From: a virus
Lineage: Duplodnaviria; Caudoviricetes
Direction: 5' to 3' (one strand)
Length of the DNA: 64,000 bases
IMG/VR virus record: IMGVR_UViG_3300005077_000001
Coordinates: 192,336 to 256,335 of that record
Shown: positions 9,531 to 26,709 of the stretch, piece by piece
Numbering within the stretch: the stretch's first letter is position 1
Layout: every line of letters begins with the position of its first letter
Notes under the pieces: model-generated
What the model was told of the DNA's origin: nothing
The model's database searches: none
The model's input: only the letters and a program-made list of their open reading frames with translations
Made by a program: the position numbers and the translations under genes

Positions 9531-10540
9531 TGGCAAAAAATCCTAATTGGACGGAAAAAGAATTAGATATCCTTATTAAGAATTATAATCATTTAAGGAT
9601 GAAAGACTTATGCAAACTATTTTTTAATAGGACTCCAGAATCTATAAAGATAAAAGCAAATAGAATAGGTTTATCCAGAGATTTTTATAATTATTGGTCC
9701 GAGGAAGAAGATAGTCTTTTATTAGAATTTTATAATAAAGCCAGTATAGAGGAAATTAGTAATAAGCTACATAGAAGTAAACAATCTATAAAATCTAGGG
9801 CAACCTTTTTAAAAATTACTAATCCAAAAACAAAAGAAGATGTCTTAGATTTTACTATTATAGATACAGAAGAAAAAGCCTATTGTTTAGGATTTATAGC
9901 AGCAGATGGCTGTTTAAGCAGATATAAAGAAGAAAACAATTATAATTTACGAATAAAATTATCTATTAAAGATGAATCTCATCTTATAAACTTATGTAAT
10001 ATTATAAGTCCTAAATCTAAAATACGATATTTGGAACAGAAAGGATTAAAATACATAGAATTTTATATTACCCATCCTAACTTAAAATTTTTATGTTTGC
10101 ACAATATATATCCTAGAAAAACATGGAATCCTAAACCCCCTTCTGCTTTAAAATATCATTTAATTCCTCATTATATTAGAGGTTATTTTGACGGTGATGG
10201 GCATATTGGAGTCATAAATAACAATTACAAAAAACTAAACTGTACTATAATAACTAAGCATAATCCTGGAATTAATATAAATCCTATTTTAATGTTTATT
10301 AAGGATGTTTTTATAGAATTATTTTATAATTGCAGTGTGAGTCTTACAACAAATAATAAGGTAGATAGATTAGTTATTTCTGGAAGAAATGCTTTCTATT
10401 TTGTTAATTGGATTTATAAAAATTCTAACTTATATCTATTTAGAAAGTATGATATAGCAAAAAATTATTTTATGGAAGTATCAGACATTGAAAATTATTT
10501 TAATAATAGGAGGAGATATGATAATAAAACAAATTGTTGA
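9530..10540 (+). CDS. free-standing LAGLIDADG homing endonuclease with two N-terminal Myb-like repeats
   Basis: DFTIIDTEEKAYCLGFIAADG, HYIRGYFDGDG, LFRKY. Confidence 0.85.
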   Translation: MAKNPNWTEKELDILIKNYNHLRMKDLCKLFFNRTPESIKIKANRIGLSRDFYNYWSEEEDSLLLEFYNKASIEEISNKLHRSKQSIKSRATFLKITNPKTKEDVLDFTIIDTEEKAYCLGFIAADGCLSRYKEENNYNLRIKLSIKDESHLINLCNIISPKSKIRYLEQKGLKYIEFYITHPNLKFLCLHNIYPRKTWNPKPPSALKYHLIPHYIRGYFDGDGHIGVINNNYKKLNCTIITKHNPGININPILMFIKDVFIELFYNCSVSLTTNNKVDRLVISGRNAFYFVNWIYKNSNLYLFRKYDIAKNYFMEVSDIENYFNNRRRYDNKTNC

Positions 10541-11207
10541 AAATAATATAGGTATAACTGATGTGGTAAATGATGGATCTTTAACCTATAAAGGATATGT
10601 TCACCACAGTGGTTTTGATTTTGTTCCTGAATTATTAGGTAATTTTTGTAAGTTTATTAATGAGTTTTGTAATAGATTTGGTATTACAGATAATTCAAAA
10701 ATAATAGAATTCGGATGTGGTTCTGGAGTTTTAGTAAATTGTTTTCCTAATGACTGCCTTTATGTTGGATTGGATGGTAATTTAGAGGGAGGAAAATTTA
10801 TTAAGGAAAAAAATAATAAAAATAAAAATTTTATTTCTGTAGATTTAACTAAGGATTTTTGTTTAGAACCTTATTTGAAATATGATGCTTTGTTTTCTTT
10901 TGATTTTATGGAACACTTGGATTTAGAAAACATCTCTATTGTATTAAATCATATGGATAACTTATTGAATAAAAATGGAATTATGTTATCATTAATAGAT
11001 ACTATTGAATTAGAAGCCCATCGAAGTAATCATCCTTTACCTTGGTGGATTGATAAAATAAATTCACTAACTAATTGGCAATTAGTAGATGCTTGTTGGA
11101 GACATCAAAATAGAGAAAGCTATTGGTGGCAACTTTTTGAAAAAACAATTCCTCCTTTTTGGCAACCAAATATAAACAATCAAATGATTGTTATTTATAG
11201 GAAATAG
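10518..11207 (+). CDS. class I SAM-dependent methyltransferase
   Basis: IIEFGCGSG motif I, VGLDG, SVDL, FSFDFMEHL; ATG 10518 behind AGGAGG. Confidence 0.8.
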   Translation: MIIKQIVENNIGITDVVNDGSLTYKGYVHHSGFDFVPELLGNFCKFINEFCNRFGITDNSKIIEFGCGSGVLVNCFPNDCLYVGLDGNLEGGKFIKEKNNKNKNFISVDLTKDFCLEPYLKYDALFSFDFMEHLDLENISIVLNHMDNLLNKNGIMLSLIDTIELEAHRSNHPLPWWIDKINSLTNWQLVDACWRHQNRESYWWQLFEKTIPPFWQPNINNQMIVIYRK

Positions 11208-11216
11208 GAGATAAAG

Positions 11217-11927
11217 ATGGATTACAAAAATAAAATAAATAGTTTGTTAGGTGAAGATCTGCTTATATTCAAAGGGGATAAGGAGTCAGAAGAATTCATA
11301 GATAAATATAATGCTATAGATACTACAGAGTTTGATAATAAGATAGCTGCATTTCATGAAGATTCTAATAATATACTCTATATGAAAGCAATTTATAAAT
11401 TTGCTAAATGTGCAGAAGTAACATCGGTAGTAGAGTTGGGTACTAGAGGATGCTATTCTTCTCTTGCTTTTTTGGAAGCTATGGGAGCAGAAGGAGAATT
11501 GTATAGTTTTGACCCAGTAATAGGTGGTAACTCTTTACTAAAAGCAGATGAAGTAAATCCTAGATGGAATAGATATGAAAAATTTGATTATGATGGTTAT
11601 GCAGAATTATCTGATAGCATAAAAAATTTTGATATGCTTTATATTGATACTGACCCCCATTCCTATGATCAGCTATTTCAGCAACTTAGAAATTGGTGGA
11701 TTAATAATTTAAAGTCTGGTGGCTATCTGCTGTTGGATGACCATTCCCCATTGCACCAAGTAGAGACTTTTGGTAATAGACCTGCTGGATTATTTAATGT
11801 TAATGCTCAGTTTGGAACATTACGTGCAACCCTAGAGTTTATTGAAGAGAGATATGATGATATACATTGGGCTTTTAGTGTTGAAAATAATTATTCTAAT
11901 GGGATTGCTATAATAAAGTTTAAATAA
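11217..11927 (+). CDS. class I SAM-dependent methyltransferase (Methyltransf_24-like, sugar O-methyltransferase type)
   Basis: VVELGTRGCYSS, YSFDP, MLYIDTDPHSY, LKSGGYLLLDD. Confidence 0.75.
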   Translation: MDYKNKINSLLGEDLLIFKGDKESEEFIDKYNAIDTTEFDNKIAAFHEDSNNILYMKAIYKFAKCAEVTSVVELGTRGCYSSLAFLEAMGAEGELYSFDPVIGGNSLLKADEVNPRWNRYEKFDYDGYAELSDSIKNFDMLYIDTDPHSYDQLFQQLRNWWINNLKSGGYLLLDDHSPLHQVETFGNRPAGLFNVNAQFGTLRATLEFIEERYDDIHWAFSVENNYSNGIAIIKFK

Positions 11928-12797
11928 ATGTCTTTCTTAATGAATAATGTTAAATGTGAATACGTACACTACAATCCAAATCCTAATGCCAAATACGGGA
12001 TTGCGTTATCTTTCGGTAAGCGTAACTGGGTAGATACTATCTTTCAAGGACAATTAGTTAATAACACTTTCTATAATAAAGAGTTAATTGAATTATCTTG
12101 TTGTAGTTATATTAAATTTCCAGATGAATGGATGGAAGAAGCTAAAAAATTATTTAATTATATAATATACGTAGATACTGATTTAGGTAAAGAAAATGGT
12201 ACAACTTTACAATCAAATTCAGCTATTTATCCATTAATGCAAAATGAAAATATAAAAGCTGTTTGGCACGGAGATGGTGATACAGTAATTATAAGAGATG
12301 TATATTTGTATGCTTTTTCAAATATGCTTTTAGATACTAATAAAGTAATTTTAACGACTAATGTTTCTTACCAATACAACCATCAACAAGGAACTAGATA
12401 CGAATTTGCTTTATTGGGAAGTAATACCCACGTTGTAAGACAATTTGGTGGGATGTTTGTACTAAATAGAAAACGTGCTTTAGAAACTGGATATTTTCCA
12501 AGACCTTGTATGGGTCATTTTGAATTTGATGGGTATACCCATTTTATTAATTGCGGACTAACCTTGGAAAAAGATGCTATAATTGTACCTCGTTTGCCAT
12601 TTGACCAACGAGGAGAAGAGTGGTTATTGTATAGTATTGATTTTCATTCTGGTGTACTACATTGTAGTAATGCTTATAATCCTAATGTTGAAACTACAAA
12701 AGAAGATAGGAAACTTAGACTTTTGAGAGCGACGGGGTTTAATAAATGGGAGAATATAGCAACAGGAATTTTAATGGGGGTGGATTATGGACTTTAA
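11928..12797 (+). CDS. uncharacterised DxD protein, putative GT-A glycosyltransferase (paralog 1)
   Basis: VWHGDGDT motif; alignable by eye to the next ORF. Confidence 0.5.
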   Translation: MSFLMNNVKCEYVHYNPNPNAKYGIALSFGKRNWVDTIFQGQLVNNTFYNKELIELSCCSYIKFPDEWMEEAKKLFNYIIYVDTDLGKENGTTLQSNSAIYPLMQNENIKAVWHGDGDTVIIRDVYLYAFSNMLLDTNKVILTTNVSYQYNHQQGTRYEFALLGSNTHVVRQFGGMFVLNRKRALETGYFPRPCMGHFEFDGYTHFINCGLTLEKDAIIVPRLPFDQRGEEWLLYSIDFHSGVLHCSNAYNPNVETTKEDRKLRLLRATGFNKWENIATGILMGVDYGL

Positions 12798-13713
12798 TCT
12801 ATTAGATGTTTCCTATTCGTATTTACATTTTAATCCAAATTCTAAGGCCAAGTACGGATTAGGAATTGGTATACATACTACAAACTTTTTAGATGGTGTA
12901 TTTTTTCTTAACTATATAAATAAATATTGGTATAATCGTGAATTCATAGATATTGGAATTTGTACTTCTTTACCGATTCCTGAAAATTATTTAGAAGATA
13001 TGAAATTGAATGCGAATTACATTGTAAAGTGTGAGCAAGATAGAGGGAAAGAATTAGGTACCATGGATAATTTAAATGGAGCCTTCTTTCCTTCCTACCA
13101 AAATGAATCTGTGAAAACAATTACTCATGTTGATGGAGATGAAATTATTCTAAATGCACAGTACTTTTTTGGTAATGCAATTATGCTTTTAGATTCTAAT
13201 AAAGCAATTCTTAACACTCAGGAAACGTTTTATTATGACCAAGAAACAATGACCGAACGGCCGGCTGAGTATAATGAAGCGTGGAAAACTAAATTTAATC
13301 ATTTGTTAATTATTAATAAGGAACGTGTACCATTTGAAACTTACTATCCTATAAAGTGTTATGGGGATTTTCATAGTGATTTATATCGTCATTTTATTGA
13401 TTCAGGATATACTATGGATGATGTGCTGCTACTAAAACGAAAAGTCTTCAATTGTGATATGCCTACTAATTTTCTACACGGGTTTAATTTCCAATTGGGG
13501 ATGGTGCATGCCACTAATCAAATACAGTATCCTGAAACTGAGGATAGAAAGATACGTATACTTAGACTACACTCTGACTCTATTTGGGAAGATAACTCAG
13601 TTGGGGCACATCGTTGGTGGGATGAAGAAAAAGGATTAAAACCACCTTATAAAGGATATAATCCAAAATTATATAGCGTAAAACCAAAAAAGGATACATA
13701 TGATAACAGATAG
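12787..13713 (+). CDS. uncharacterised DxD protein, putative GT-A glycosyltransferase (paralog 2)
   Basis: ITHVDGDE motif; shares HFNPN.KAKYG, GKE.GT and EDRK.R.LR with the upstream ORF. Confidence 0.5.
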   Translation: MDFNLLDVSYSYLHFNPNSKAKYGLGIGIHTTNFLDGVFFLNYINKYWYNREFIDIGICTSLPIPENYLEDMKLNANYIVKCEQDRGKELGTMDNLNGAFFPSYQNESVKTITHVDGDEIILNAQYFFGNAIMLLDSNKAILNTQETFYYDQETMTERPAEYNEAWKTKFNHLLIINKERVPFETYYPIKCYGDFHSDLYRHFIDSGYTMDDVLLLKRKVFNCDMPTNFLHGFNFQLGMVHATNQIQYPETEDRKIRILRLHSDSIWEDNSVGAHRWWDEEKGLKPPYKGYNPKLYSVKPKKDTYDNR

Positions 13714-13734
13714 CATAGGAGAAAAGGTTAAACC

Positions 13735-14451
13735 ATGGTAAATATTATTATTTCTATTCCAAAAAGTGGAACCCATTTTTTAAATGAAGTTTTAATCCAC
13801 GCATTGGATAATAATTGCGATTATTCTTTTAGTAAGCAAACATTTGGTGGGAATCTACAAGAGGTTAGAGATGGATTAAATAAAGTTTTAGATAATAATA
13901 AGAAATCTAATCTCAATTACTTAGCTCATTGGGCTTATTCTGAAGAATTGGCAGATTGGCTAATTGATACAGATTACAATGTGTTTTTTATTTATAGGCA
14001 CCCTTTAGATGTTGCAGTTTCTTTTATAGAAGGTGCTCTATTGAAGCTCTTTGATGACCCTATTGCAAATAAGATAAGAAGAATAAACAATAAGGATTTA
14101 AATTATATCTGGTTATTGGAAGGCTATCGTAATATAAAACACCCAAATGCTGTTGGATTGAGGAAAATAATAGAAGAGAGATTAAAGTGGGCCGAGATAT
14201 TTTTTAATGTTAAGTATAGGCATTTGTATGATATAAATCATTGTAATAAACTACAATTATGTATGTCTAATTTAATTGGATGTGATACTAGCCACCTTTG
14301 TAATGCTGTAAATGAGGCTAAAAATACTATTACCAAAACTTTTAGAAATCCTGGTGTTGATAATTGGAAAAATGAAATGCCTGAACATATACAAAATAAG
14401 TATATATCTTCTTTAAATGACTTAATTGTGGATATGGGATTCCAATGTTAA
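13735..14451 (+). CDS. PAPS-dependent sulfotransferase
   Basis: 5'-PSB loop SIPKSGTHFL, 3'-PB YRHPLDVAVS, C-terminal FRNPGVDNWK. Confidence 0.85.
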   Translation: MVNIIISIPKSGTHFLNEVLIHALDNNCDYSFSKQTFGGNLQEVRDGLNKVLDNNKKSNLNYLAHWAYSEELADWLIDTDYNVFFIYRHPLDVAVSFIEGALLKLFDDPIANKIRRINNKDLNYIWLLEGYRNIKHPNAVGLRKIIEERLKWAEIFFNVKYRHLYDINHCNKLQLCMSNLIGCDTSHLCNAVNEAKNTITKTFRNPGVDNWKNEMPEHIQNKYISSLNDLIVDMGFQC

Positions 14452-14954
14452 AACAGGTAATATGGCTATTTGGAAAATCTGGAACTGGAAAAACTACATT
14501 AGCTACTGCTTTATCAAATAAGATAAACGTTCCTTTACTAGATGCAGATAAGATTAGATTAGTGTTGGGAATTGAACCAGATTTTTCTCTTCAAGGTAGA
14601 TTAAAATTTCAAAAAGAATTTAGAAAGTATATAAAAAACTATGATGCTCAGACTGTTGTGGTAGCATCAATAACACCACTACAAGAAATGAGAAATAAAA
14701 ACAGAAAAGAATTTAAAAATTATTATGAAATATATCTTCATTGTAGTATGGATAAACTAATAGCACGAGATCCAAAAAGATTATATGCAAAGGCGCTCAG
14801 AGGAGATATTACTAATTTTACAGGGTTATCTTCAGTGTTTGAAAAACCTTATAGTAATTATCCAGATTTATACATAGATACGGGGAACATGAGTATTGAT
14901 TCATCTTTGAAAATTGTATATGATTCCTTAATAAAAAAATACGGAAAGGATTAA
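14445..14954 (+). CDS. cysC: adenylyl-sulfate (APS) kinase
   Basis: IWLFGKSGTGKT P-loop, LLDADKIR, ASITP, RDPKRLY, NFTGLSSVFEKP. Confidence 0.92.
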   Translation: MLKQVIWLFGKSGTGKTTLATALSNKINVPLLDADKIRLVLGIEPDFSLQGRLKFQKEFRKYIKNYDAQTVVVASITPLQEMRNKNRKEFKNYYEIYLHCSMDKLIARDPKRLYAKALRGDITNFTGLSSVFEKPYSNYPDLYIDTGNMSIDSSLKIVYDSLIKKYGKD

Positions 14955-14956
14955 CT

Positions 14957-15940
14957 ATGAAAATACTTGTTACAGGAGGCTCCGGTTACATAGGCTCAGT
15001 GCTGATTAAATATTTATTTAATTATGGCAAAGAACTAGGTGATTTAAAACCAATTGAAAAAGTTACAGTTGTTGATTCCTTATTATTCAATCAAAATACT
15101 CTAGGACAATATGCAGATAATCCAAAGTTTGAATTTATTTGTGGGGATGTTTCTGATACTAGTCTGATGTGGCCTCTGTACGAAGAAGCAGATGTAATAA
15201 TTCCTCTTGCGGGACTAGTTGGATTTCCTATTTGTGCTAAGCATCCTGACTTAGCTTGGAAATTAAATTGTGATGTAATAGCGGATATGGTTGAGTTCCT
15301 ATTTGTCCATGATTGGTTAAAGAATAAGAAGATAATCTATCCCTGCACTAATAGCGGTTATGGAAGTTATCCTGATGGAAGAATGGTTACTGAAGAAGAT
15401 AAATTGAATCCTATTTCTGTGTACGGTCAAAGTAAGGTAGAAGCAGAGAGTATTTTGTTAGCAGCAGGAGCAGTTTCTCTTCGTCTTGCGACAGTTATGG
15501 GGTACAGTCCTTTTATGAGAGTAGGGCTTTTAGTTAATACCTTTTGTTGGAACGCGTCTAAACAAAGGAATATAGTACTGTATGAAAAAACCGCTAGACG
15601 TAATTATATACACGTGGAAGATGTATGCCAAGCATTCATATTAGCTTTACATAATTATGATTGGGTAAAAGGAGAAGCATTTAATGTAGGCTTATCCACT
15701 GCTAATTTAAATAAAGAAGAATTAGCTAAGAAAATAGCAGAGCATACGGAATTACATATTGTTGAAGCTCCTTTTATGACTGACCCAGACCAACGTGACT
15801 ACTTGGTATCTAATGAAAAAATAGAAACAAGGTTGGGATTTAAACCAAAATGGGATTTAGATAGAACTATAAATCAATTACTAAAATTTTATAAAGGGGT
15901 ATCTGAGCATTCATCTAATGTTTATTTTGGAACAACTTAA
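14957..15940 (+). CDS. extended-SDR NDP-sugar epimerase/dehydratase
   Basis: VTGGSGYIG, YGQSK (YxxxK), SLRLATV.G.SP.MR, RNYIHVED. Confidence 0.85.
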   Translation: MKILVTGGSGYIGSVLIKYLFNYGKELGDLKPIEKVTVVDSLLFNQNTLGQYADNPKFEFICGDVSDTSLMWPLYEEADVIIPLAGLVGFPICAKHPDLAWKLNCDVIADMVEFLFVHDWLKNKKIIYPCTNSGYGSYPDGRMVTEEDKLNPISVYGQSKVEAESILLAAGAVSLRLATVMGYSPFMRVGLLVNTFCWNASKQRNIVLYEKTARRNYIHVEDVCQAFILALHNYDWVKGEAFNVGLSTANLNKEELAKKIAEHTELHIVEAPFMTDPDQRDYLVSNEKIETRLGFKPKWDLDRTINQLLKFYKGVSEHSSNVYFGTT

Positions 15941-16032
15941 GTGTTAAAACAAATATACAAAAATCTATTTTACTATTTATTCATTATTGGATTAGCAGAA
16001 GACTACACAGAATTTGAAAAGGAGAATAAAAA

Positions 16033-16464
16033 ATGGGATTTGTATCAAGAGAAATTGAAAAGATTAGAAAAGAAATAGTCAAGGAATTGGAAAAAAACGA
16101 TACAGAAGGAAGAACAACAAGCAGTCTATATGAAAAATTAGCAATTGCTAACCAAGCTTTGGGTTGGGCATTAGAACCTAACGGGGTAATGTCACCTTAT
16201 ACTTATATTATGAATGTTAATTCTCATGGAGAAGATTATAAAGAACCAGAAAAAGAAGAATAGGAAAAAATGAAATTAAGTAAATTTAAACAATTACGTA
16301 GAGATACCCATTGGTCTGAAGATGCTGTGTATTGTTGCAGTGACGAATTATGTGGTTGGGTTGGAACAGGCCCTGATTTAGTAAGCGATTCTGGCTTTGA
16401 TTCTTGGTGGATGCAGCCTACTTGCCCTTTGTGTGGTGAAGATGCTTATGAGGAAGGTATATGA
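16033..16464 (+). CDS. two small hypothetical proteins (16033-16263; 16270-16464 with Zn-ribbon CxxxxC...CPLC)
   Basis: ORF track; AAGGAG RBS before 16033. Confidence 0.55.
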
Positions 16465-16865
16465 CTAAAACCTGTCCTTTAAATAATAATAAATGTGTAG
16501 AATCTTGTATGTGGTTTGACACAGGTTTTATGAATTGTAAAATTATTTATTATATGGGGGAATTATCTAAAGATATTGCAGACATTAACAGTTTATTATT
16601 TGAGATAAATAAGAAAACAGAAGAAAATAATAAAAAGCTTGTTGCTGTTGCATCTACAATAAAACCAGGCCGCCCACCAAAATCAAGTAATAAGAAGACC
16701 AAGGGTAAATATGTTTCTAATTGGAATGAAGAGCAGGCACAGTTACTAAAAGATAATTGGAACAAAGTATCTAAAGAAGAATTAGAACAAATAGTTGGAA
16801 AGAAATGGAGACAGATATTAGGAAAAGTTGCTAGATTGAATCTAGGAAAATGGAAAGGAGAGTAG
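16461..16865 (+). CDS. hypothetical DNA-binding protein (Cys-rich N-terminus, PGRP AT-hook-like motif, C-terminal Myb-like repeat)
   Basis: CP..NNKC...CMWF, KPGRPPK, WNEEQAQLLKDNW...GKKWRQI.GK..RLNL. Confidence 0.5.
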   Translation: MTKTCPLNNNKCVESCMWFDTGFMNCKIIYYMGELSKDIADINSLLFEINKKTEENNKKLVAVASTIKPGRPPKSSNKKTKGKYVSNWNEEQAQLLKDNWNKVSKEELEQIVGKKWRQILGKVARLNLGKWKGE

Positions 16866-16893
16866 ATGGAAGATACATATGGTAGAAGTAATT

Positions 16894-17673
16894 ATGAATA
16901 GAAAAATAATCTCTGCTTCTCGTAGAACAGATTTACCAGCATTTCATTCGGAATGGTTTTTAGATGGAGTAAATAAAGGGTATGTGGATGTAGTAAACCC
17001 TTACTCAAAAGAAAACCAGATAATATCTTTATTACCAGAAAATGTTAATTTTATTGCGTTTTAGACTAAAAACTTTATTCCTCTTATGAAAGATTCTTTA
17101 TTATTACAAAAACAATATAACTTTTATATTAATTATACTATTAATAACTACGAAAAAGATATAGAACCAAATGTACCTAATTTAGATTTAACAATAGGCG
17201 CTGTTCGCATCTTAAATGAAAATAAAATACCAATTAGATGGCGATATGATACTATACTTTTGACAGATTATTATACCAAAGATTGGCATTTAAGTAATTT
17301 TAAACAATTATGTAAAAGTTTGGAATGTTCAGTATCATCCTGTACTTTTAGTTTTTGTAATTGGTATCCTAAAGTAGAAAAACATTTACAAAAAATTGGA
17401 ATTGATTATTATAAACCAACTGATGAAGAAAAAAAAGAAATGGCTTCAAAGATGTTAGAGATTGCTTGTGCTTATGATATTTCGTTATTATCTTGTTCAG
17501 ATTCTTCGGTTTTAATTCCTGGTATTGGGCAGGCTCATTGCATTGATCCTAGTTTTTCACAAATTAATGTTGGGAAAGGAAATAATCGTAAAGAATGTGG
17601 TTGTGCTAAAGCAGTCGATATTGGAACATATGGAACTTGTAATCATGAATGCATTTATTGCTATGCAACTTAA
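16894..17673 (+). pseudogene. DUF1848-like (radical-SAM-related Fe-S) gene interrupted by in-frame TAG at 17062-17064
   Basis: IISASRRTDLPAF...NPY...F*TKN (family FWTKN)...RWRYD...CGCAKAVDIGTYGTCNHECIYCYA; both halves in one frame. Confidence 0.8.
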
Positions 17674-17688
17674 AAAAAGGAGACTGAA

Positions 17689-18069
17689 ATGACTGAAACA
17701 TTAAGAGGGCTATCGTCGGTAAGAGTTACAAAAGAGTTTTTATTAGAGAAGTTACAAGCAAATCGTGAAGAGCATTCTGTAGTTTATGAAGAGGCAATGC
17801 TCGGATGGAATACAAAAGTACTAGAATTCCTAGAGTCATCAATTGAGAGAGTAAAATCTGATTTAAACTTTAATCCATTCATTAATATCAATCTTCCTAA
17901 ACCAGACAATCACTTGCTGGATTATGATAGAGCGATTGATTTATTGAAAGCTAGCTTAGATACTGAGTTTGTTTTAACTTCTAAAGAATTCGCTCAGTAC
18001 GTAAGAGACGAATGGGATTGGAAAGATTACTTTAATGCTACTATCTCTGGGTGTGGGTATATAAGGTAA
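17689..18069 (+). CDS. hypothetical protein
   Basis: 126-aa ORF with AAGGAG RBS. Confidence 0.6.
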   Translation: MTETLRGLSSVRVTKEFLLEKLQANREEHSVVYEEAMLGWNTKVLEFLESSIERVKSDLNFNPFININLPKPDNHLLDYDRAIDLLKASLDTEFVLTSKEFAQYVRDEWDWKDYFNATISGCGYIR

Positions 18070-18073
18070 TAAG

Positions 18074-19117
18074 ATGGAAAAGGACTATATAGGGGAACAC
18101 CCCGCTAAGCAGGTACCTAAAGTTGGATTTAAAAGAGGAATAAGATATCAACCTCGAATTTTAGTCTTAGGCGGTAATGGTTTCTTCGGTAAAAACTTAC
18201 GCCCATATTTAGAATCATATTGGCCAAATGCTGATATCATAGATGTTCAAGGTAGACGCTTTTTTGATTTGACCATTCAAAATGAATGTAGGATTTGCTT
18301 TGAGCGTGCTGCAAGCCAAGGACCAATTAATATAGTAATTAATCTTGCTGCTTATAGCGGTGGTATGTTTGAAAACATGAATCATCATGCTAGATTCTAT
18401 TATCAGAATTCTATGATTAATTTGAATGTGATGGATGAGTGTGCTAGATATAAAGTAAACAAATTACTTGTGCCTATTGGAGGTTGTAGTTATCCAGATA
18501 CTAACGAGTACAACGGTGGCACATATACTGAAGATGAGATATGGAATGGGTTTGCAAATAAGAATAGCTATGGATATTCGATGGCAAAACGTAATGCAAT
18601 AGTAGGAGCATTGGCTTATAGTTCAGAATTCAATTTGAATACCACTGTTGTAATTCCTACGAATCCAATTGGACCGTGGGATAATGTAGATGAAAAAAAT
18701 GCACATCTTCCGATGGCATTAATAGGTAGGTTTTTAGAAGCAATTGCTGAGGGCTATTCGACAGTAACTGTTTATGGAAGTGGTAGACCAGAAAGAGACT
18801 TTTTATACATAGGAGATATAGTGAGCTTATATCCTGCAATTATTGATCACTATGGGGAGATAGGCCCTTTAAACATTAGTTCTGGTAAAGGAACAACTAT
18901 TGCAGAGATGGCAGAGCTTATAGCAAAAACTACAGGGTTCACCGGTAAAATTCATTTTGATAGAAGTAAACCAGACGGCCAGATGAAAAAGGTCCTTGAT
19001 AACAGTAAGCTCTTAGAATTTGTGAATGAGTATAGCATCAAGTGGGAACCTATGGGGTTAGAAGAAAGTATTGAAACGACTGTAGAATGGTATCGTAAAA
19101 GAATTCTAGGAGAATAA
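18074..19117 (+). CDS. fcl: GDP-L-fucose synthase-like epimerase/reductase
   Basis: LGGNGFFG, NLAAYSGG..EN, GCSYP, YSMAK, PTN..GPWDN, AHLPMALI, GSGRPERDFLY, KPDGQMKK. Confidence 0.88.
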   Translation: MEKDYIGEHPAKQVPKVGFKRGIRYQPRILVLGGNGFFGKNLRPYLESYWPNADIIDVQGRRFFDLTIQNECRICFERAASQGPINIVINLAAYSGGMFENMNHHARFYYQNSMINLNVMDECARYKVNKLLVPIGGCSYPDTNEYNGGTYTEDEIWNGFANKNSYGYSMAKRNAIVGALAYSSEFNLNTTVVIPTNPIGPWDNVDEKNAHLPMALIGRFLEAIAEGYSTVTVYGSGRPERDFLYIGDIVSLYPAIIDHYGEIGPLNISSGKGTTIAEMAELIAKTTGFTGKIHFDRSKPDGQMKKVLDNSKLLEFVNEYSIKWEPMGLEESIETTVEWYRKRILGE

Positions 19118-19118
19118 A

Positions 19119-19985
19119 ATGACTACTATAGACTTGGAATATGTTATTACAAATCCACAATCTTATATAATTGTTATAGGTTGTGATGGGTTTATTGGTA
19201 GTGCTTTTGTAAGATTTTCCAAATCTAATCCCGATTTTGAATATAAATTTATTTTTATTAATAGAAAAAATTATAAAGAGTGGAAAGAGTATATAGAAAA
19301 ATACCAATTAGAATTTAAATCTACTATTTGGGCAGCGGGATTGTCGTCTAAAATATATTGTGAATCTAATTTTGAATGGTGCTGGGAACAGAATGTGGAT
19401 AATTTAATATTGGCAATTGATGATTTTCCTGCTGATTTGTTTGTTTATATTTCTTCATATGATGTATATCCTAGTTTTTGGATGCCGGAAAAAAAGGAAG
19501 AGAATGCAGAAATAGATATTAATTTGCTATCTAACTACGGGAAAACAAAACTTGAAGGAGAAAATATTGTTAAGAGATGGGCATATAATAGTTATTTAAT
19601 ATTAAGACCAAATGCTTTTGTGGGGGATGGACTAAGAAAAAATATAATTTATGATTTATTGCAAGAAGAAAAAAATATTTATGTAACTTTAGATTCTATT
19701 TTTCAATTTATAAATACAGATGTTTTTGTGGAAATACTTTTAACTTTTTTAATTAATAATTATAGAGATACTATATTTAATATATCTGGTTCTAAATCAA
19801 TAAGTGTAAGTTCTATTTTATCTATTATGGGAGTGAATACAGATGAGGTCATATTTAATAATTCTTCAAAAATAATAGCCGAAATGAACATATTAAAATT
19901 ACAAAAAAGTATTGTAGATAATTATAACTTGCTTACAAGCGAAGATTACATATCTAATTGGAGAAGAAATGAGATGGTCAAATGA
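19119..19985 (+). CDS. NAD-dependent epimerase/dehydratase (SDR)
   Basis: IGCDGFIG, YISSYDVY, YGKTK, ILRP. Confidence 0.75.
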   Translation: MTTIDLEYVITNPQSYIIVIGCDGFIGSAFVRFSKSNPDFEYKFIFINRKNYKEWKEYIEKYQLEFKSTIWAAGLSSKIYCESNFEWCWEQNVDNLILAIDDFPADLFVYISSYDVYPSFWMPEKKEENAEIDINLLSNYGKTKLEGENIVKRWAYNSYLILRPNAFVGDGLRKNIIYDLLQEEKNIYVTLDSIFQFINTDVFVEILLTFLINNYRDTIFNISGSKSISVSSILSIMGVNTDEVIFNNSSKIIAEMNILKLQKSIVDNYNLLTSEDYISNWRRNEMVK

Positions 19986-21042
19986 AGAAATAGATTATTT
20001 AATTCAAAATTATTCTAAGGAACCTATAGATAATTTATGTTTTAATTTAAATCGTAGTTGGAGTGCTGTTAGATGGAAAGCTTTTGATTTGAGATTGTTT
20101 AGACCAAGCCATATAAAGAGAATAGACACTTCTTACTTTGAAAAAATAAATAGCGAAGATAGATCTTACTTTTTAGGTTTACTATATGCAGATGGGAATG
20201 TTTGTCAAAACAAACTCGATCTTCGTTTAGTAGAGTCAGGTGGTTATATTCTTGAAAGACTTGCTAAACATATTTATTTGTATGACTTTACTATATATGA
20301 TGTTCCTTCAAAGGTAATGGAAGGTGGTTATATAACAAAACCTCAAAAAAGGTTAAATATTTATAGTAAAAAAATATGTGATGATTTGATAAAATTAGGA
20401 TGCACTCCTAATAAATCTCATTCTATTATTTTTCCCACTTTCATTTCTGATGAGTTAATGCCTCATTTTATTCGTGGTTATTTTGATGGAGATGGATGTA
20501 TATCCTTTTCTATTACTAAAGATAATAATCTGTCTACGAGCTTTACTATATCTTCTGTCTCACATGGTTTTTGCAATTCCTTTAAAAATTATTTAGAAAA
20601 AATATTAAATATAACTTTATACTTATCTAAAAATAAAACTGCATTTGTTGTTAGAACAAGCAAATTAGAAGATATAATTAAAATAAATAATTATTTATAT
20701 GAGAATATGACCACAGACCTATTTTTTGAAAATAAGTATAAGAAATTTGTCCTATTAGAACAGATGTTTTTAGATAAAAATTTTAAATTTGATTTTGTAG
20801 GAAAAGATCCTGATTCTAGAAAGGCACGGAATAAAAAAATATCTGAAGGAGTAAGAAAACTAACTTCAGAAGATGAAAAAGATATTTGTAATATGTACAT
20901 TAATGGGAAAACGATGAATGAGATAGCATCATTATTTAATGTTTATCAATCTACTATAAGAAGGTATTTGTTAAAAAACGATGTTATCATAAGAAGTAAT
21001 TGGGAAAGCAGGAGATTTAATAAGAGTAATAACGAGGAATAA
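19969..21042 (+). CDS. free-standing LAGLIDADG homing endonuclease (Myb-like N-terminus, HTH C-terminus)
   Basis: YFLGLLYADG, HFIRGYFDGDG, RWSNEE repeat, C-terminal EIASLFNVYQSTIRRYL. Confidence 0.85.
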   Translation: MRWSNEEIDYLIQNYSKEPIDNLCFNLNRSWSAVRWKAFDLRLFRPSHIKRIDTSYFEKINSEDRSYFLGLLYADGNVCQNKLDLRLVESGGYILERLAKHIYLYDFTIYDVPSKVMEGGYITKPQKRLNIYSKKICDDLIKLGCTPNKSHSIIFPTFISDELMPHFIRGYFDGDGCISFSITKDNNLSTSFTISSVSHGFCNSFKNYLEKILNITLYLSKNKTAFVVRTSKLEDIIKINNYLYENMTTDLFFENKYKKFVLLEQMFLDKNFKFDFVGKDPDSRKARNKKISEGVRKLTSEDEKDICNMYINGKTMNEIASLFNVYQSTIRRYLLKNDVIIRSNWESRRFNKSNNEE

Positions 21043-21044
21043 TT

Positions 21045-21275
21045 ATGACATATGACTGCATTATTTGTGGCTACACATGGGTTACTGATAATGAGCCTTC
21101 AGAAATTACTTCGAGTGGGCTATGCAAACCCTGCCTAAAGAAAAGATTAGAACCGATAGCTCATAAAGAACAAATAAAATACAGTGGTATTCCTTGCTAT
21201 GCTACGGCTAAAGGGTATTGCGACCAATATGCTTGTAAGTATTATAAAATCTGCGTAGAGGTAGCAGATATATAA
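21045..21275 (+). CDS. small Cys-rich (Zn-binding) protein
   Basis: CIIC, CKPC, CYATAKGYCDQYACKYYKIC. Confidence 0.6.
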   Translation: MTYDCIICGYTWVTDNEPSEITSSGLCKPCLKKRLEPIAHKEQIKYSGIPCYATAKGYCDQYACKYYKICVEVADI

Positions 21276-21284
21276 GGAAAAAGG

Positions 21285-21959
21285 ATGACACGTAAGGCTA
21301 AGCCTAAACCAAAGCCTGATTTTAGGCATGAACTTAAACTGCGTAAAGAAGGGAATCACAATATTTTAGGAATAGATGAGGCTGGAATGAGTCCTCTAGC
21401 CGGTCCTGTTACAGCTGCTGGTGTAATCTTCTTAGAAAACCCCTACATAAAAGGATTAAATGATTCTAAATTACTAAGCCCAGAAAAGCGTGAAGATTTA
21501 TATGAACAGATAATAAATAAAGCTTATAAATACCAAGTTATTTCAATTGGAGTAAATGACATTAATAACTTGAATATATTTAATGCTTCCCAAAAAGCAA
21601 TGCGTACGATTATATATACCTTATACGGCTATTATAATGCTATTTTAGTAGACGGCAATAAAAAAATAAAGCATTTAATGCCACCATACGATTTAATTCC
21701 TCAATTTCCATTAGTAAAAGGAGATCAGCGTTCAATATCCATTGCAGCGGCTAGCATATTAGCTAAAGTAACTAGGGATAGGTATATGTGTAAATTAGCA
21801 GAGAAATATCCCTGGTACGGATGGCAACAAAATAAAGGATACCCAACTGCTATGCATAAAGAGGCAATAAGAAAGTATGGAACTACAGAGCATCACAGGG
21901 TTGGGTTTAAAGGAGTTAGAGAATACATTGGCAAATTATACAAAACTTCACGAAGATAA
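21285..21959 (+). CDS. rnhB: ribonuclease HII
   Basis: GIDEAG..PLAGPV, LNDSK, VDG, KGD..SISIAAASILAKVTRD, KGYPT..H, HR. Confidence 0.92.
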   Translation: MTRKAKPKPKPDFRHELKLRKEGNHNILGIDEAGMSPLAGPVTAAGVIFLENPYIKGLNDSKLLSPEKREDLYEQIINKAYKYQVISIGVNDINNLNIFNASQKAMRTIIYTLYGYYNAILVDGNKKIKHLMPPYDLIPQFPLVKGDQRSISIAAASILAKVTRDRYMCKLAEKYPWYGWQQNKGYPTAMHKEAIRKYGTTEHHRVGFKGVREYIGKLYKTSRR

Positions 21960-22093
21960 AGATTGGATTATCAGCATAGAAGATAATCCCAAAGATAATA
22001 AACAAGTTATTGTGACTTACAAAATGATAGATGGGACTACTGCAAAAGCATACATTAGTAAATCACCCATTAAAACTAAGAAGAAAAAAAATA

Positions 22094-22951
22094 ATGAATT
22101 CAAAATTAAATGAACATATAGTTACAGTTTCAGAAGTTGTACTTAACCAAACTTTAGCACATCATCAAAAAGAAATATTAGGAGGAGTAACTAGCAATAA
22201 AAACTCTATTATAATTATGAATAGAGGCGGAAGTAAAACTTTTATGATAGCGTATTTGGCACTTATAAATGCTTGGACTCATCCTGGTATAAGAATAGGG
22301 TGCTTTGCTAGTAGTTTTAGACAATCTAAACTTATATATGAACAAATAAAGAAAATAATAGAAGCATCACCAATCCTACAATCAAATATTTATGAAAAAT
22401 TTTCTTCTTTAGATAATTGGAGTATAACTTTTAATAAAGGATTGAATAGCAAGTCTTCTATAATTCAATCATTTCCATTAAACGATGGATGCAAATTAAA
22501 AGGTAAAAGATACGACCAAGTGTATATAGATGAAGGTTATACTTTACCTGAAGATGTATTCGATATGGTAATAAGACCGATGGTTATGACTTCCCAAGAT
22601 CCTTTTCAGTTTATGAAGCATACTGAGTTAAAAGAATATATTAATAATTGTGCTTTAACAAGAGCAAACAAGGATAAATGCCTTGCTGTTGCTGAACAAG
22701 ATTATAATGAGTATTTAACTAAATTTCCTCCTAAAAAAATAGTTATATTTTCTACTGCTTATTATGATAATTGGCTGTATACTCTATATAATTCTTACTA
22801 TAAAAAAGATGATTGTTTTACTGTTACTTATAGTTATTTGAATATGCCTAAAGGTTGGTTCGATGATGAATATTTAAAAAATCAAAGATCTAAAGACGAG
22901 GAACTTTTTCGTATGGAATATGGAAGTGTTTGGCTAGCGAGGACTATTTGA
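22094..22951 (+). CDS. terminase large-subunit-like ATPase domain (no nuclease domain)
   Basis: HQ Q-motif, RGGSKT Walker A, FRQSK, VYIDEG Walker B, IFSTA motif III; ends at FRMEYGSVW. Confidence 0.65.
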   Translation: MNSKLNEHIVTVSEVVLNQTLAHHQKEILGGVTSNKNSIIIMNRGGSKTFMIAYLALINAWTHPGIRIGCFASSFRQSKLIYEQIKKIIEASPILQSNIYEKFSSLDNWSITFNKGLNSKSSIIQSFPLNDGCKLKGKRYDQVYIDEGYTLPEDVFDMVIRPMVMTSQDPFQFMKHTELKEYINNCALTRANKDKCLAVAEQDYNEYLTKFPPKKIVIFSTAYYDNWLYTLYNSYYKKDDCFTVTYSYLNMPKGWFDDEYLKNQRSKDEELFRMEYGSVWLARTI

Positions 22952-23493: not shown

Positions 23494-24480
23494 TTGATGA
23501 TTATATCTAGTTCTCCTACTCGTTTGAGCTTAGGCTCAATGGATCATTCGCCGTTCGCTGAACGATTTGGTGGAAATGCTTTAAACATAGCTATTAATAA
23601 GAGAATTTATATTCTCATACGAAAACGTAATAATATTGAAGATTTTAAATACCGAATTTCATACTCTAAAACAGAGTTATGTAATGACATAGATGAGATA
23701 GAGCATCCTTTAGTGAGAGAGTCAATAAGATATGTAAATGTAAAAGATCCTATCGAAGTCGTTTATTCTTCTGATGTTCCAACTCAATTAGGTATGGGAA
23801 CTAGTTCTTCTATGACAGTTGCTTTACTCAAAGCTCTGTACTATTTTAATAATACAGCCATATCGTCTGAATTACTATTTGATAGGGCTTACCTTATCGA
23901 ACGAGAATTAGTAAAAGAACAAGGCGGTTTTCAAGATTTTAGCTGTACTTGGGGAGGATTAAATTACTTAGAAGGAAGTCCTTATAAGATTAATCGCATA
24001 CCTGTAGTTTTATCTATGGATAAATTAGAAGAATTGAAGCAACATATACTCCTACTATACACAGGAAAAAGGGAAAATTCCAATGATGTATTGAAAGAAC
24101 AATTAAAAAAAATGAAGAAAGGTCAAACTCTAGAAGAGTCCTTGAGAATCAAATCTTTAGTATCGGAAATGTATTCTTTATTCTTACAGCCTGATTTTCA
24201 TCCAATGCACTTATGCCCTGCTATTAAGGAAGGATGGGAATTAAAAAAGAAGTTATCATCCACAATGACTTCTGAATTAATAAATAATGTCGAGCATGTA
24301 ATTTATGGTATTGATTCTTATGCAGGGGTAAGATTAGTAGGTAGTGGCGGCGGTAGAGGATTAATCATGGTTATTACTAAACCGAGAAATCATGATGAGA
24401 TTATAAGAAAAACTAAATTAAAATCACTAGATTTTGATTGGGATTTTGACGGATGTAGAGTCAGAAAGGTAGAGGGATAA
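23494..24480 (+). CDS. hddA: GHMP sugar kinase, D-glycero-D-manno-heptose 7-phosphate kinase (HddA)-like
   Basis: SPTRLSLG, YSKTE...EIEHPLVRE, SDVP..LGMGTSSS, GGFQD, WGG, LLYTG, LVGSGGG. Confidence 0.7.
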   Translation: MMIISSSPTRLSLGSMDHSPFAERFGGNALNIAINKRIYILIRKRNNIEDFKYRISYSKTELCNDIDEIEHPLVRESIRYVNVKDPIEVVYSSDVPTQLGMGTSSSMTVALLKALYYFNNTAISSELLFDRAYLIERELVKEQGGFQDFSCTWGGLNYLEGSPYKINRIPVVLSMDKLEELKQHILLLYTGKRENSNDVLKEQLKKMKKGQTLEESLRIKSLVSEMYSLFLQPDFHPMHLCPAIKEGWELKKKLSSTMTSELINNVEHVIYGIDSYAGVRLVGSGGGRGLIMVITKPRNHDEIIRKTKLKSLDFDWDFDGCRVRKVEG

Positions 24481-25398: not shown

Positions 25399-25414
25399 GG
25401 AAAGGAAAATTATT

Positions 25415-26482: not shown

Positions 26483-26487
26483 CGGCA

Positions 26488-26709
26488 GTGAGAATAGATT
26501 TATCATACATGTATGTGTGTGAATACTGTGGAGCAGGTTCTTATATGGAAGATGATGGTGATGGATGGATGTTGCATTTTGAATGTAGTTGTTGGGGAAG
26601 ATGCTGGTGTCTAGGTCATCCTGAAGATTGGATAAGGTGGAAAGATAAGAATTTAATTCCTTATATTCCATATATTGAGAGTAATGCTATAAAGGAAAGG
26701 GGAGAATAA
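26488..26709 (+). CDS. small Cys-rich hypothetical protein
   Basis: CEYC...CSC..C.C; followed by RBS of the next gene. Confidence 0.45.
   Translation: MRIDLSYMYVCEYCGAGSYMEDDGDGWMLHFECSCWGRCWCLGHPEDWIRWKDKNLIPYIPYIESNAIKERGE

What the first reader, a model, noticed from the sequence alone, without database searches (positions are those of the whole stretch)
13735..14954. Sulfotransferase-APS kinase cassette lacking ATP sulfurylase
Seen: overlapping sulfotransferase and cysC genes, with no sat/cysDN in the window. Known: CysC converts APS to PAPS, the sulfotransferase donor, and dissimilatory sulfate reducers make abundant APS but route it to APS reductase. Inference: the phage needs only CysC to divert host APS into PAPS for sulfating its glycan, consistent with an anaerobic, possibly sulfate-reducing host. 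This would be biosynthetic use of a gene often labelled a sulfur-assimilation AMG.
Basis: partly seen in the sequence, partly recalled or inferred. Interest (0 to 1): 0.75.

Follow-up and report, generated by a model that had tools for sequence, protein, structure and literature searches.

The report
Phage sulfation cassette: sulfotransferase plus APS kinase
A 256-kb uncultured phage has a sulfotransferase gene overlapping a gene for the enzyme that makes its sulfate donor (PAPS), inside a sugar-chain synthesis island, so this "sulfur-assimilation" gene most likely serves to sulfate a phage-made glycan; nothing points to a sulfate-reducing host.

Summary
ORF 13735-14451 is a PAPS-dependent sulfotransferase (ST). 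ORF 14445-14954 is a stand-alone APS kinase (CysC) that overlaps it by 7 nt. The roughly 97%-complete 256-kb genome has no Sat-type or CysD-type ATP sulfurylase, no HxGH mini-nucleotidyltransferase and no CysH.

The biosynthetic reading is supported:
- The pair lies among soluble glycosyltransferases, methyltransferases and GDP-deoxyhexose enzymes.
- Five related contigs keep the ST-then-cysC order (L009 is cut after 25 cysC codons).
- Three long relatives have ST1-cysC-ST2, and this phage keeps an ST2 homologue elsewhere.
- An unrelated virus encodes an ST-CysC fusion.
- Of 23 other viral records with full-length cysC, 17 carry a sulfotransferase (14 within 5 kb), none carries CysH/CysD and one carries an ATP sulfurylase.

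The four viromics papers I read call viral cysC an assimilatory gene and never mention sulfotransferases.

The host inference is only partly supported. An anoxic niche fits, because NrdD is the only ribonucleotide reductase and one relative comes from wetland sediment. A sulfate-reducing host has no support, since cysC without a sulfurylase is the general viral pattern. The acceptor is inferred from context only.

This scan had already noted phage ST plus APS-kinase cassettes on other DNA (72 notes, at least 61 genomes).

The parts
13735..14451 (+). ST1: PAPS-dependent sulfotransferase, 238 aa
   Evidence: PF00685 at E 1.2e-6. Motifs PKSGTH (5'-phosphosulfate loop), YRHPLDVAVS (3'-phosphate motif) and FRNPGVDNWKNE. 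Subfamily invariants P9, G12, H65, R88, S96, W211, with K10, T13, T202 and R204 nearly invariant. AF2 model pLDDT 95.3. The top 20 structural matches are all PAPS sulfotransferases, SULT1B1 at Z 16.2.
14445..14954 (+). CysC: stand-alone APS kinase, 169 aa
   Evidence: PF01583 at E 2.7e-25. Solved APS kinases match at E 1.3e-24 (8a8h) and 5.4e-24 (7yq0). P-loop GKSGTGKTT, LDAD, and lid RDPKRLYAKA...NFTG. AF2 pLDDT 94.0. Best fold match is the PAPSS1 kinase domain, Z 21.1, rmsd 2.0 A.
14445..14451 (+). 7-nt overlap of the ST1 stop and the cysC start (translational-coupling geometry)
   Evidence: Sequence. Relatives show overlaps of 11, 11 and 8 nt or gaps of 1 and 11 nt.
14957..15940 (+). SDR nucleotide-sugar epimerase/dehydratase, starting 3 nt after cysC
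   Evidence: PF01370 at E 1.1e-27. phrog_540 nucleotide-sugar epimerase at E 4.9e-35. The same position is conserved in L002 and L007.
11928..13713 (+). Two GT-A (GT2-like) glycosyltransferases directly upstream of ST1 (11928-12797 and 12787-13713)
   Evidence: No Pfam hit. ESM Atlas feature and structure neighbours are GT2-type glycosyltransferases, mostly viral clusters.
10488..11927 (+). Two SAM-dependent methyltransferases (10488-11207 and 11217-11927)
   Evidence: PF13489 at E 3.6e-9 and PF13578 at E 2.1e-7. Homologues lie upstream of ST1 in L002, L005 and L007.
8547..9530 (+). Glycosyltransferase (Glyco_trans_1_2 / RXYLT1_C-like)
   Evidence: PF13524 at E 1.5e-7. Syntenic in L002 and L007.
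983..7556 (+). Start of the island: two GT4-type glycosyltransferases, intein-containing GDP-mannose 4,6-dehydratase (3969-5972) and a GT2 (6687-7556)
   Evidence: PF00534, PF16363 at E 3.7e-113 and PF00535. Intein boundaries read.
18074..19985 (+). GDP-L-fucose-synthase-like SDR (18074-19117) and a further SDR (19119-19985)
   Evidence: NF047922 GDPFucSynFcl at E 4.7e-51, below its cut-off. PF01370.

Best explanation
This is a two-gene PAPS supply-and-use module inside a roughly 19-kb cytoplasmic glycan-synthesis island of a jumbo phage.

Proposed course of events:
1. The infected cell's own ATP sulfurylase makes APS (inferred; the phage has no sulfurylase of any known or proposed type).
2. 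Phage CysC phosphorylates the 3'-OH of APS to give PAPS. Family, fold and motifs are shown; activity is inferred.
3. ST1, translated from the overlapping upstream gene, transfers the sulfate from PAPS to a hydroxyl of the acceptor. A second phage sulfotransferase, ST2 at genome 42224-43036, does the same.
4. The acceptor is most likely a sugar of the O-methylated 6-deoxyhexose glycan built by the neighbouring enzymes (inferred from context).
5. The phage encodes no membrane protein in the island, no lipid-carrier initiating transferase and no flippase or polymerase. The glycan is therefore probably assembled on a cytoplasmic acceptor such as a virion protein, or it depends on host export (inferred).
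6. The by-product PAP would be cleared by host enzymes (inferred; there is no phage CysQ-type gene).

So the gene is a biosynthetic donor-supply gene, not a sulfur-assimilation gene. Having cysC without a sulfurylase is the normal viral arrangement and says nothing specific about the host.
For: Identity of the two enzymes.

No sulfate activation or PAPS reduction genes in the 97%-complete genome.

Conserved ST-then-cysC order with overlapping or abutting genes in L002, L003, L005, L007 and L008 (40-50% CysC identity; L009 is cut after 25 codons, 56%).

cysC is flanked by two sulfotransferases in L002, L003 and L007, and this phage keeps the ST2 homologue (27% identity, E 1e-25; PF03567 over its cut-off).

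Natural ST-APS kinase fusion in an unrelated 59% G+C virus (P0299; hhalign 92.7% for the N-terminal half, PF01583 at E 1.8e-43 for the C-terminal half).

Co-occurrence in 23 other viruses with full-length cysC: a sulfotransferase in 17, within 5 kb in 14, PAPS_reduct in 0, ATP sulfurylase in 1. A conservative control set gave 8 of 25 and 3 of 25, Fisher p 0.005 and 0.0007.

Glycan context: glycosyltransferases, methyltransferases, Gmd, an Fcl-like SDR and other SDRs around the pair.

Cytoplasmic pathway: only one borderline hydrophobic stretch among the island proteins, no PF02397 or PF00953, and no protein with 8 or more TM segments in the genome.
Against: No activity, expression or acceptor has been shown for any of these proteins.

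The sulfotransferase fold resembles small-molecule and tyrosylprotein sulfotransferases at least as much as carbohydrate ones, so a glycan acceptor rests on gene context alone.

CysC scores below the curated NCBIfam cut-offs (112.5 against 127). It also departs from the canonical DRxxNxRR stretch, reading GRLKFQKEF.

One close sulfotransferase relative (L006) has no cysC within 16 kb, and one near-complete cysC virus (G005) has no detectable sulfotransferase.

The co-occurrence sample was chosen by similarity to this CysC, contains near-duplicates (G006 and G007), and includes four records with only sub-cut-off sulfotransferase hits.

The record is linear, and about 3% of the genome may be missing.
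Confidence: 0.7

Rival explanations
1. Assimilatory AMG, the reading in the literature: phage CysC boosts the host's sulfate-to-sulfide-to-cysteine pathway during infection, and its position next to a sulfotransferase is incidental.
For: Four viromics papers file viral cysC under assimilatory sulfate reduction. A host that reduces PAPS rather than APS would gain flux from extra CysC.
Against: There is no CysH or CysD in this genome, in the 211-kb relative or in any of 23 other cysC viruses. The gene overlaps a sulfotransferase, is flanked by two in relatives and is fused to one elsewhere. Those papers never examined sulfotransferases: the word occurs zero times in each.
Confidence: 0.07
2. The donor supply works as described, but the acceptor is not the glycan. 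ST1 would sulfate a protein tyrosine, a small metabolite, a lipid or a nucleic-acid modification.
For: The nearest folds include cytosolic small-molecule sulfotransferases (Z about 16) and tyrosylprotein sulfotransferases (Z 14.5), ahead of heparan-sulfate enzymes (Z about 12) and Stf0 (Z 9.2). Fold cannot assign the acceptor.
Against: ST1 sits between glycosyltransferases and methyltransferases on one side and a sugar SDR on the other in this phage and in L002 and L007. The fusion protein in L030 is followed by an FkbM-type methyltransferase.
Confidence: 0.17
3. One reading: the phage lacks a sulfurylase because its host is a dissimilatory sulfate reducer with a large APS pool, which CysC diverts.
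For: NrdD is the only ribonucleotide reductase. One relative comes from sulfate-rich wetland sediment. The nearest cultured-phage NrdD is from Desulfovibrio phage ProddE, though at only 35% identity.
Against: 22 of 23 other cysC viruses also lack a sulfurylase. None of them has NrdD, and 4 of the 5 near-complete ones have class I/II reductases. Published viral cysC is almost all from marine and fresh water. The close NrdD relatives, at 60-67% identity, are unnamed contigs. The genome is 33% G+C, which from general knowledge is well below typical Desulfobacterota. APS is made by every sulfate-assimilating cell.
Confidence: 0.08
4. The kinase is not an APS kinase but a diverged P-loop kinase for another substrate, such as a sugar or nucleotide of the glycan pathway.
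For: It scores below all NCBIfam APS-kinase cut-offs. The DRxxNxRR stretch is altered. Gluconate kinases score Z 17.3-17.5, not far below.
Against: The Pfam APS_kinase match is full length, far above shikimate kinase (2.7e-25 against 2e-9). It shares 27-29% identity and Z 19.7-21.1 with solved APS kinases, against 16% identity with gluconokinases. Both Asp of the DGD motif, Arg38, Arg52, the lid and NFTG are retained. It is consistently linked to PAPS-dependent enzymes.
Confidence: 0.06

Closest known systems
Rhizobial nodPQ-nodH (Nod-factor sulfation), with the analogous RaxPQ-RaxST of Xanthomonas and mycobacterial CysDNC-Stf0 (from general knowledge)
   Same: A dedicated PAPS-supply gene is clustered with a PAPS-dependent sulfotransferase so that a specific product is sulfated, separately from sulfur assimilation.
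   Different: Those loci encode ATP sulfurylase as well as APS kinase. This phage encodes only the kinase and must take APS from the host. The genes overlap, and the module is carried by a virus.
Viral cysC 'auxiliary metabolic genes' (Kieft et al. preprint 10.1101/2021.01.05.425418; COBRA, PMC10914622; Challenger Deep, PMC9529941; mudflat large DNA viruses, PMC13172472)
   Same: The same gene family in uncultured phages. Those papers note that cysC phages have large genomes and that one 210-kb lake phage expresses cysC.
   Different: They interpret cysC as assimilatory sulfate reduction and never mention sulfotransferases. Here cysC is linked to sulfotransferases (17 of 23) and never to CysH/CysD (0 of 23).
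Phage sulfotransferase plus APS-kinase cassettes noted earlier in this scan (for example e1-3408483, e1-5355820, e1-1938665)
   Same: A phage-borne APS kinase next to a sulfotransferase, read as PAPS supply for sulfation.
   Different: Some of those carry a full CysD/CysN-like set, a tiny HxGH nucleotidyltransferase proposed as a new sulfurylase, or a lidless kinase. This phage has none of these: no HxGH gene and an intact lid. Its cassette sits in a large deoxyhexose-glycan island, with a second sulfotransferase elsewhere in the genome.
Bifunctional PAPS synthases (human PAPSS1, PDB 1x6v; Aquifex Sat-APS kinase, 2gks)
   Same: The kinase domain is the closest fold: Z 21.1 and 17.8, with 29% and 23% identity.
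   Different: Those enzymes are fused to an ATP sulfurylase domain. The phage protein is a bare 169-aa kinase. Among viruses only G009 had a Sat-CysC fusion.
Phage- and virus-encoded glycosylation of virions (mycobacteriophages, Freeman et al. 2023, cited in PMC12619734; chlorovirus and mimivirus glycan machinery, from general knowledge)
   Same: Soluble, virus-encoded glycosyltransferases and sugar-nucleotide enzymes without export machinery, which suggests glycosylation of viral proteins in the cytoplasm.
   Different: I found no report of sulfate on such glycans in the library I searched. The acceptor here is not known.

Membership tests
APS kinase (CysC, PF01583) | Family profile score above the curated cut-off, over the full length | tested here: met
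   Pfam: 89.6 bits against 21.1, model positions 4-149 of 152. It is below the stricter NCBIfam cut-offs, for example 112.5 against 127.
APS kinase (CysC, PF01583) | P-loop GxxGxGK[ST] and the two Asp of the LDGD motif | tested here: met
   GKSGTGKTT and LDAD. D33 is nearly invariant, and D35, G15 and K16 are invariant in alignment A4.
APS kinase (CysC, PF01583) | APS-site residues: Arg after DGD, Phe-Ser, Arg and Asn of DRxxNxRR, ISP, NFTG (roles recalled from general knowledge) | tested here: inconclusive
   R38, DFS, R52 and NFTG are present, and ISP reads ITP. The Asn position is Phe or Gln depending on the alignment. Archaeal solved APS kinases also vary at this position.
APS kinase (CysC, PF01583) | Mobile lid RDxKGLY | tested here: met
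   RDPKRLYAKALRG. R108, D109, K111 and Y114 are invariant, and the region is modelled at pLDDT 87-93.
APS kinase (CysC, PF01583) | APS kinase fold | tested here: met
   PAPSS1 kinase domain at Z 21.1, rmsd 2.0 A, 163 residues aligned. A. pernix APS kinase at Z 19.7.
APS kinase (CysC, PF01583) | Catalyses APS + ATP to PAPS + ADP | not testable with these tools
   Needs an enzyme assay.
PAPS-dependent sulfotransferase (PF00685 superfamily) | 5'-phosphosulfate-binding loop PKxGT | tested here: met
   PKSGTH at residues 9-14. P9 and G12 are invariant, K10 and T13 nearly so.
PAPS-dependent sulfotransferase (PF00685 superfamily) | 3'-phosphate-binding motif R...S | tested here: met
   YRHPLDVAVS, with R88 and S96 invariant.
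PAPS-dependent sulfotransferase (PF00685 superfamily) | Catalytic base (His in cytosolic enzymes) | tested here: inconclusive
   H65 is invariant in 23 sequences and lies just after a strand. Its equivalence to the SULT catalytic His was not checked by superposition.
PAPS-dependent sulfotransferase (PF00685 superfamily) | Sulfotransferase fold | tested here: met
   Model pLDDT 95.3. The top 20 matches are all PAPS sulfotransferases, Z 16.2 to 11.4.
Assimilatory sulfate-reduction gene set | PAPS or APS reductase (CysH) to use the PAPS | tested here: not met
   No PF01507 in G000, in G001 or in 23 other cysC viruses.
Complete PAPS-synthesis module (NodPQ / CysDNC / PAPSS type) | An ATP sulfurylase (Sat, CysD/CysN or the proposed HxGH mini-enzyme) | tested here: not met
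   No PF01747, PF01507, PF01467 or H.GH small ORF in the 97%-complete genome.
Lipid-linked surface polysaccharide locus (O-antigen / capsule type) | Initiating phosphoglycosyl transferase and a Wzx/Wzy or ABC exporter | tested here: not met
   No PF02397 or PF00953. The island proteins show only one borderline hydrophobic stretch, and no genome ORF has 8 or more hydrophobic segments by a simple hydropathy scan.

The most novel reading that the evidence does not exclude
Viral cysC is in general a sulfation gene and not an assimilation gene. This jumbo phage would decorate a cytoplasmic acceptor, most likely its own virion proteins, with a sulfated, O-methylated deoxyhexose glycan. That would be a negatively charged coat of a kind not yet reported for any phage. 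ST1 and CysC would act as a coupled unit that hands PAPS directly from kinase to transferase, as the natural fusion in another virus suggests.
Probability: 0.3. Interest if true: 0.75.

Novelty: new variant of a known kind. Interest (0 to 1): 0.55.

Why it matters
Viromics surveys routinely count viral cysC as evidence that phages drive sulfur assimilation. If the gene instead feeds virus-encoded sulfotransferases, those biogeochemical readings need correcting. Sulfated glycoconjugates would also become a previously unrecognised phage product, with likely effects on adsorption, on particle charge and stability, and on recognition by hosts or grazers. The kinase-only design shows the minimum a phage needs: it takes APS, which nearly every cell makes, and supplies only the step that commits it to the sulfate donor.

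Tried and rejected
- Sequencing runs: none was listed for window 10000-19900, so expression could not be examined.
- Complex prediction of ST1 with CysC: no verdict. It is not used as evidence either way.
- Promoter and terminator scans across 8000-21500 were at chance level.
- A single-protein CysC scan of viral contigs found nothing.
- tblastn of ST1 against 50,697 phage records found nothing, and CysC matched only 6 records at 34% identity or less.
- A plain sequence search of the PDB with ST1 was insignificant (E 0.26). The fold search was needed.
- The scan of named bacterial genomes found only 20-24% identical sulfotransferases, in Mariprofundaceae and Babeliales MAGs. That gives no donor or host lead.
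- Host assignment through PolA and NrdD failed. PolA relatives are 25-30% identical and come from many hosts. The best cultured-phage NrdD match is 35% (Desulfovibrio phage ProddE). The 60-67% relatives are unnamed contigs.
- The 'moraphage' paper (PMC12619734) could not be tied to this lineage.
- PHROGs has no family for ST1, ST2 or an APS kinase.
- The control set for co-occurrence is contaminated: some of its 'partial kinase' records also have nearby sulfotransferases. It is therefore a conservative baseline only.
Full report
**What is there.** The window is the last 64 kb of a 256,335-bp viral record that CheckV estimates as 97% complete. The genome is 33% G+C and has four tRNA genes. On the + strand, ORF 13735-14451 (238 aa) and ORF 14445-14954 (169 aa) overlap by 7 nt, so the cysC ATG lies inside the last codons of the upstream gene. 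Pfam assigns the first to Sulfotransfer_1 (E 1.2e-6, above its cut-off) and the second to APS_kinase (E 2.7e-25, full length).

**The sulfotransferase (ST1).**
- It has the 5'-phosphosulfate loop PKSGTH, the 3'-phosphate motif YRHPLDVAVS, and a C-terminal FRNPGVDNWKNE stretch.
- In an alignment of 23 subfamily members, the invariant or nearly invariant residues are exactly these, plus His65.
- A plain sequence search of the PDB was not significant.
- An AlphaFold model built on that alignment is very confident (pLDDT 95.3, pTM 0.92).
- An exhaustive structural comparison gives PAPS-dependent sulfotransferases as the 20 best matches, led by SULT1B1 at Z 16.2 with 212 residues aligned. The Foldseek search agrees.
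- The acceptors of those matches range from steroids to protein tyrosines to heparan sulfate. The donor is therefore settled, but the acceptor is not.

**The kinase (CysC).**
- It matches solved stand-alone APS kinases at E about 1e-24.
- It keeps the P-loop, both Asp of the DGD motif (as DAD), the following Arg, Arg52, the RDPK-LY lid and NFTG.
- It models at pLDDT 94.0. Its nearest structures are APS kinases: the PAPSS1 kinase domain at Z 21.1, rmsd 2.0 A and 29% identity, and A. pernix APS kinase at Z 19.7. Gluconate kinases follow at Z 17.3-17.5 and 16% identity.
- It is divergent. It scores below the NCBIfam cut-offs and has an altered DRxxNxRR stretch. A change of substrate cannot be fully excluded, but I rate it unlikely.

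**What is absent.**
- The genome has no Sat-type ATP sulfurylase and no PAPS_reduct domain, which rules out both CysD and CysH. It has no CysQ-type phosphatase.
- Earlier notes of this scan proposed that a tiny HxGH nucleotidyltransferase beside phage APS kinases is a new kind of sulfurylase. I tested this and found no cytidylyltransferase-like gene and no H.GH motif in any small ORF.
- So the phage really does encode only the APS-to-PAPS step.

**Context.** The pair lies in an island (about 983-19985) of soluble enzymes:
- two GT4-type glycosyltransferases, a GT2 and a further glycosyltransferase;
- a GDP-mannose 4,6-dehydratase interrupted by an intein;
- two SAM methyltransferases;
- two GT-A proteins directly upstream of ST1, recognised only through ESM Atlas neighbours;
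- a sugar SDR starting 3 nt after cysC, a GDP-fucose-synthase-like SDR and one more SDR.

A second group follows at 23494-30074, with a GHMP kinase, a GT2 and an SDR. LAGLIDADG homing endonucleases are scattered throughout.

A simple hydropathy scan found only one borderline hydrophobic stretch among the island proteins. The genome has no WbaP- or WecA-type initiating transferase, and no ORF with enough hydrophobic segments to be a flippase, polymerase or sulfate permease. The glycan is therefore probably built on a cytoplasmic acceptor, or it relies on host export.

**Conservation in the lineage.**
- An exhaustive profile search found about 13 close sulfotransferase representatives within a superfamily of 1,742 hits.
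- Wherever sequence continues past the close homologue, a CysC homologue at 40-50% identity starts at or within 12 nt of its stop. This holds for L002, L003 (a 211-kb viral contig), L005, L007 (149 kb) and L008. L009 is cut 25 codons into cysC, at 56% identity.
- L006 is the one exception: it has two sulfotransferases and no cysC within 16 kb.
- In L002, L003 and L007 a second sulfotransferase of the Sulfotransfer_2 type follows cysC. This phage has the homologue of that ST2 (27% identity, E 1e-25) at genome 42224-43036, about 164 kb away. One kinase therefore serves two PAPS consumers.
- The 211-kb relative also lacks a sulfurylase and PAPS reductase.

**Generality.** I collected viral contigs with CysC-like genes and kept the 23 records whose match covers the whole APS-kinase model.
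- 17 carry a hit at E 1e-3 or better to one of three sulfotransferase families (13 above the curated cut-offs).
- In 14 the hit lies within 5 kb of cysC (10 above the cut-offs).
- None carries PAPS_reduct.
- Only one, a 409-kb record with a Sat-CysC fusion, carries an ATP sulfurylase.
- Five of the six records without a sulfotransferase are fragments at or below 38% completeness.
- A control set of 25 records from the same scan, which have only partial kinase hits, gave 8 of 25 and 3 of 25 (Fisher p 0.005 and 0.0007). The control is contaminated by probable divergent CysCs, which makes it conservative.
- The sample was chosen by similarity to this CysC and includes near-duplicates, so the counts are indicative and not a census.
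- One record (L030, 59% G+C) encodes a 393-aa protein whose first 205 residues align end to end with the sulfotransferase profile (hhalign 92.7%, with its own RKSGT and RRDPKNIAVS motifs). Residues 213-358 are an APS kinase (E 1.8e-43), and an FkbM methyltransferase gene follows. This is a natural fusion in the same order as the overlapping genes here.

**Literature.**
- Four viromics papers treat viral cysC as an assimilatory sulfate-reduction gene. None contains the word sulfotransferase.
- Their own observations fit a glycan role: cysC phages have larger genomes (PMC10914622), and viral cysC is almost all marine or freshwater, with one 210-kb lake phage expressing it (10.1101/2021.01.05.425418).
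- Searches combining cysC or APS kinase with sulfotransferase and phage or viral returned nothing relevant.
- Within this scan, however, phage sulfotransferase plus APS-kinase cassettes have been noted repeatedly on other DNA (72 notes, at least 61 genomes). The idea is not new to the scan.

**Host.**
- The phage's only ribonucleotide reductase is the oxygen-sensitive class III enzyme NrdD (E 8.6e-90). It has no class I/II large subunit and no class I small subunit.
- One relative (L008) comes from the Mai Po wetland sediment metagenome 3300010413. An anoxic niche is therefore plausible.
- No host could be named. PolA and NrdD give only distant or unnamed relatives. The 35% NrdD match to Desulfovibrio phage ProddE is too weak to use.
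- Among the close relative G001 and the 23 other cysC viruses, none has NrdD, and four of the five near-complete records have class I/II reductases.
- The kinase-only design is therefore not a mark of anaerobes or sulfate reducers. It is simply how viruses carry this function, because APS is available in any cell that activates sulfate.

**Verdict.** The biosynthetic interpretation is well supported by context, conservation, a fusion protein and co-occurrence. The glycan acceptor is likely but unproven. The sulfate-reducer inference is not supported. The finding is a new variant of known sulfation loci and of the known viral cysC 'AMG'. Its main value is in correcting how that gene is read.

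Noticed in passing
window 40217-42187 (+): Anaerobic class III ribonucleotide reductase NrdD (PF13597, E 8.6e-90) is the only ribonucleotide reductase in the genome. There is no class I/II large subunit and no class I small subunit. Relatives at 60-67% identity sit on unnamed contigs of up to 320 kb.
   Followed up: partly
window 3969-5972 (+): The GDP-mannose 4,6-dehydratase carries an insert of about 350 aa in the conserved NHE|SPRRG motif. The insert starts with Ser, ends in ...IHN before a +1 Ser, and contains a LAGLIDADG domain. It looks like a typical intein.
   Followed up: partly
window 16879-17673 (+): A DUF1848 gene is interrupted by one in-frame TAG at 17062-17064: a 61-aa N-terminal part, then 195 aa matching profile positions 68-262. 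TAG ends 21 of 150 long ORFs, so there is no genome-wide recoding. It could be a pseudogene, an assembly variant or read-through.
   Followed up: partly
window 7576-8595, 9530-10540, 19969-21042, 31962-33263, 42860-44155, 55626-56669 (+): At least six free-standing LAGLIDADG homing-endonuclease genes, several with Myb-like DNA-binding N-termini, are interspersed among the glycan and replication genes.
   Followed up: no
genome 42224-43036 (+), outside the window (locus L016:1462-2274): A second sulfotransferase (Sulfotransfer_2, E 4.8e-5, over its cut-off) stands alone on the + strand among small minus-strand genes. It is homologous to the ST2 that follows cysC in relatives L002, L003 and L007.
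   Followed up: partly
L030:2630-3811 (IMGVR_UViG_3300033153_002979): A natural sulfotransferase-APS kinase fusion protein (393 aa) in an unrelated 59% G+C viral contig, followed by an FkbM-type methyltransferase gene.
   Followed up: partly
G009 (IMGVR_UViG_3300028029_000006, 409 kb), about 361968-363608 (-): A 735-aa open frame combines ATP sulfurylase (E 7e-95) and APS kinase (E 4e-61), a PAPS-synthase-like fusion. The same huge viral record has a second stand-alone cysC.
   Followed up: no
window 22031-22951 (+): A 306-aa ORF has only a weak match to the N-terminal half of a T4-type large terminase (E 1.8e-5). It lies between the two parts of the glycan region and may be a fragment or a split gene.
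   Followed up: no
window 36153-36923 and 37977-38777 (+): ThyX (flavin-dependent thymidylate synthase) and a Dam-type N6-adenine DNA methyltransferase lie downstream of the island. No hydroxymethylase was seen in the window, which argues weakly against DNA as the glycan acceptor.
   Followed up: no
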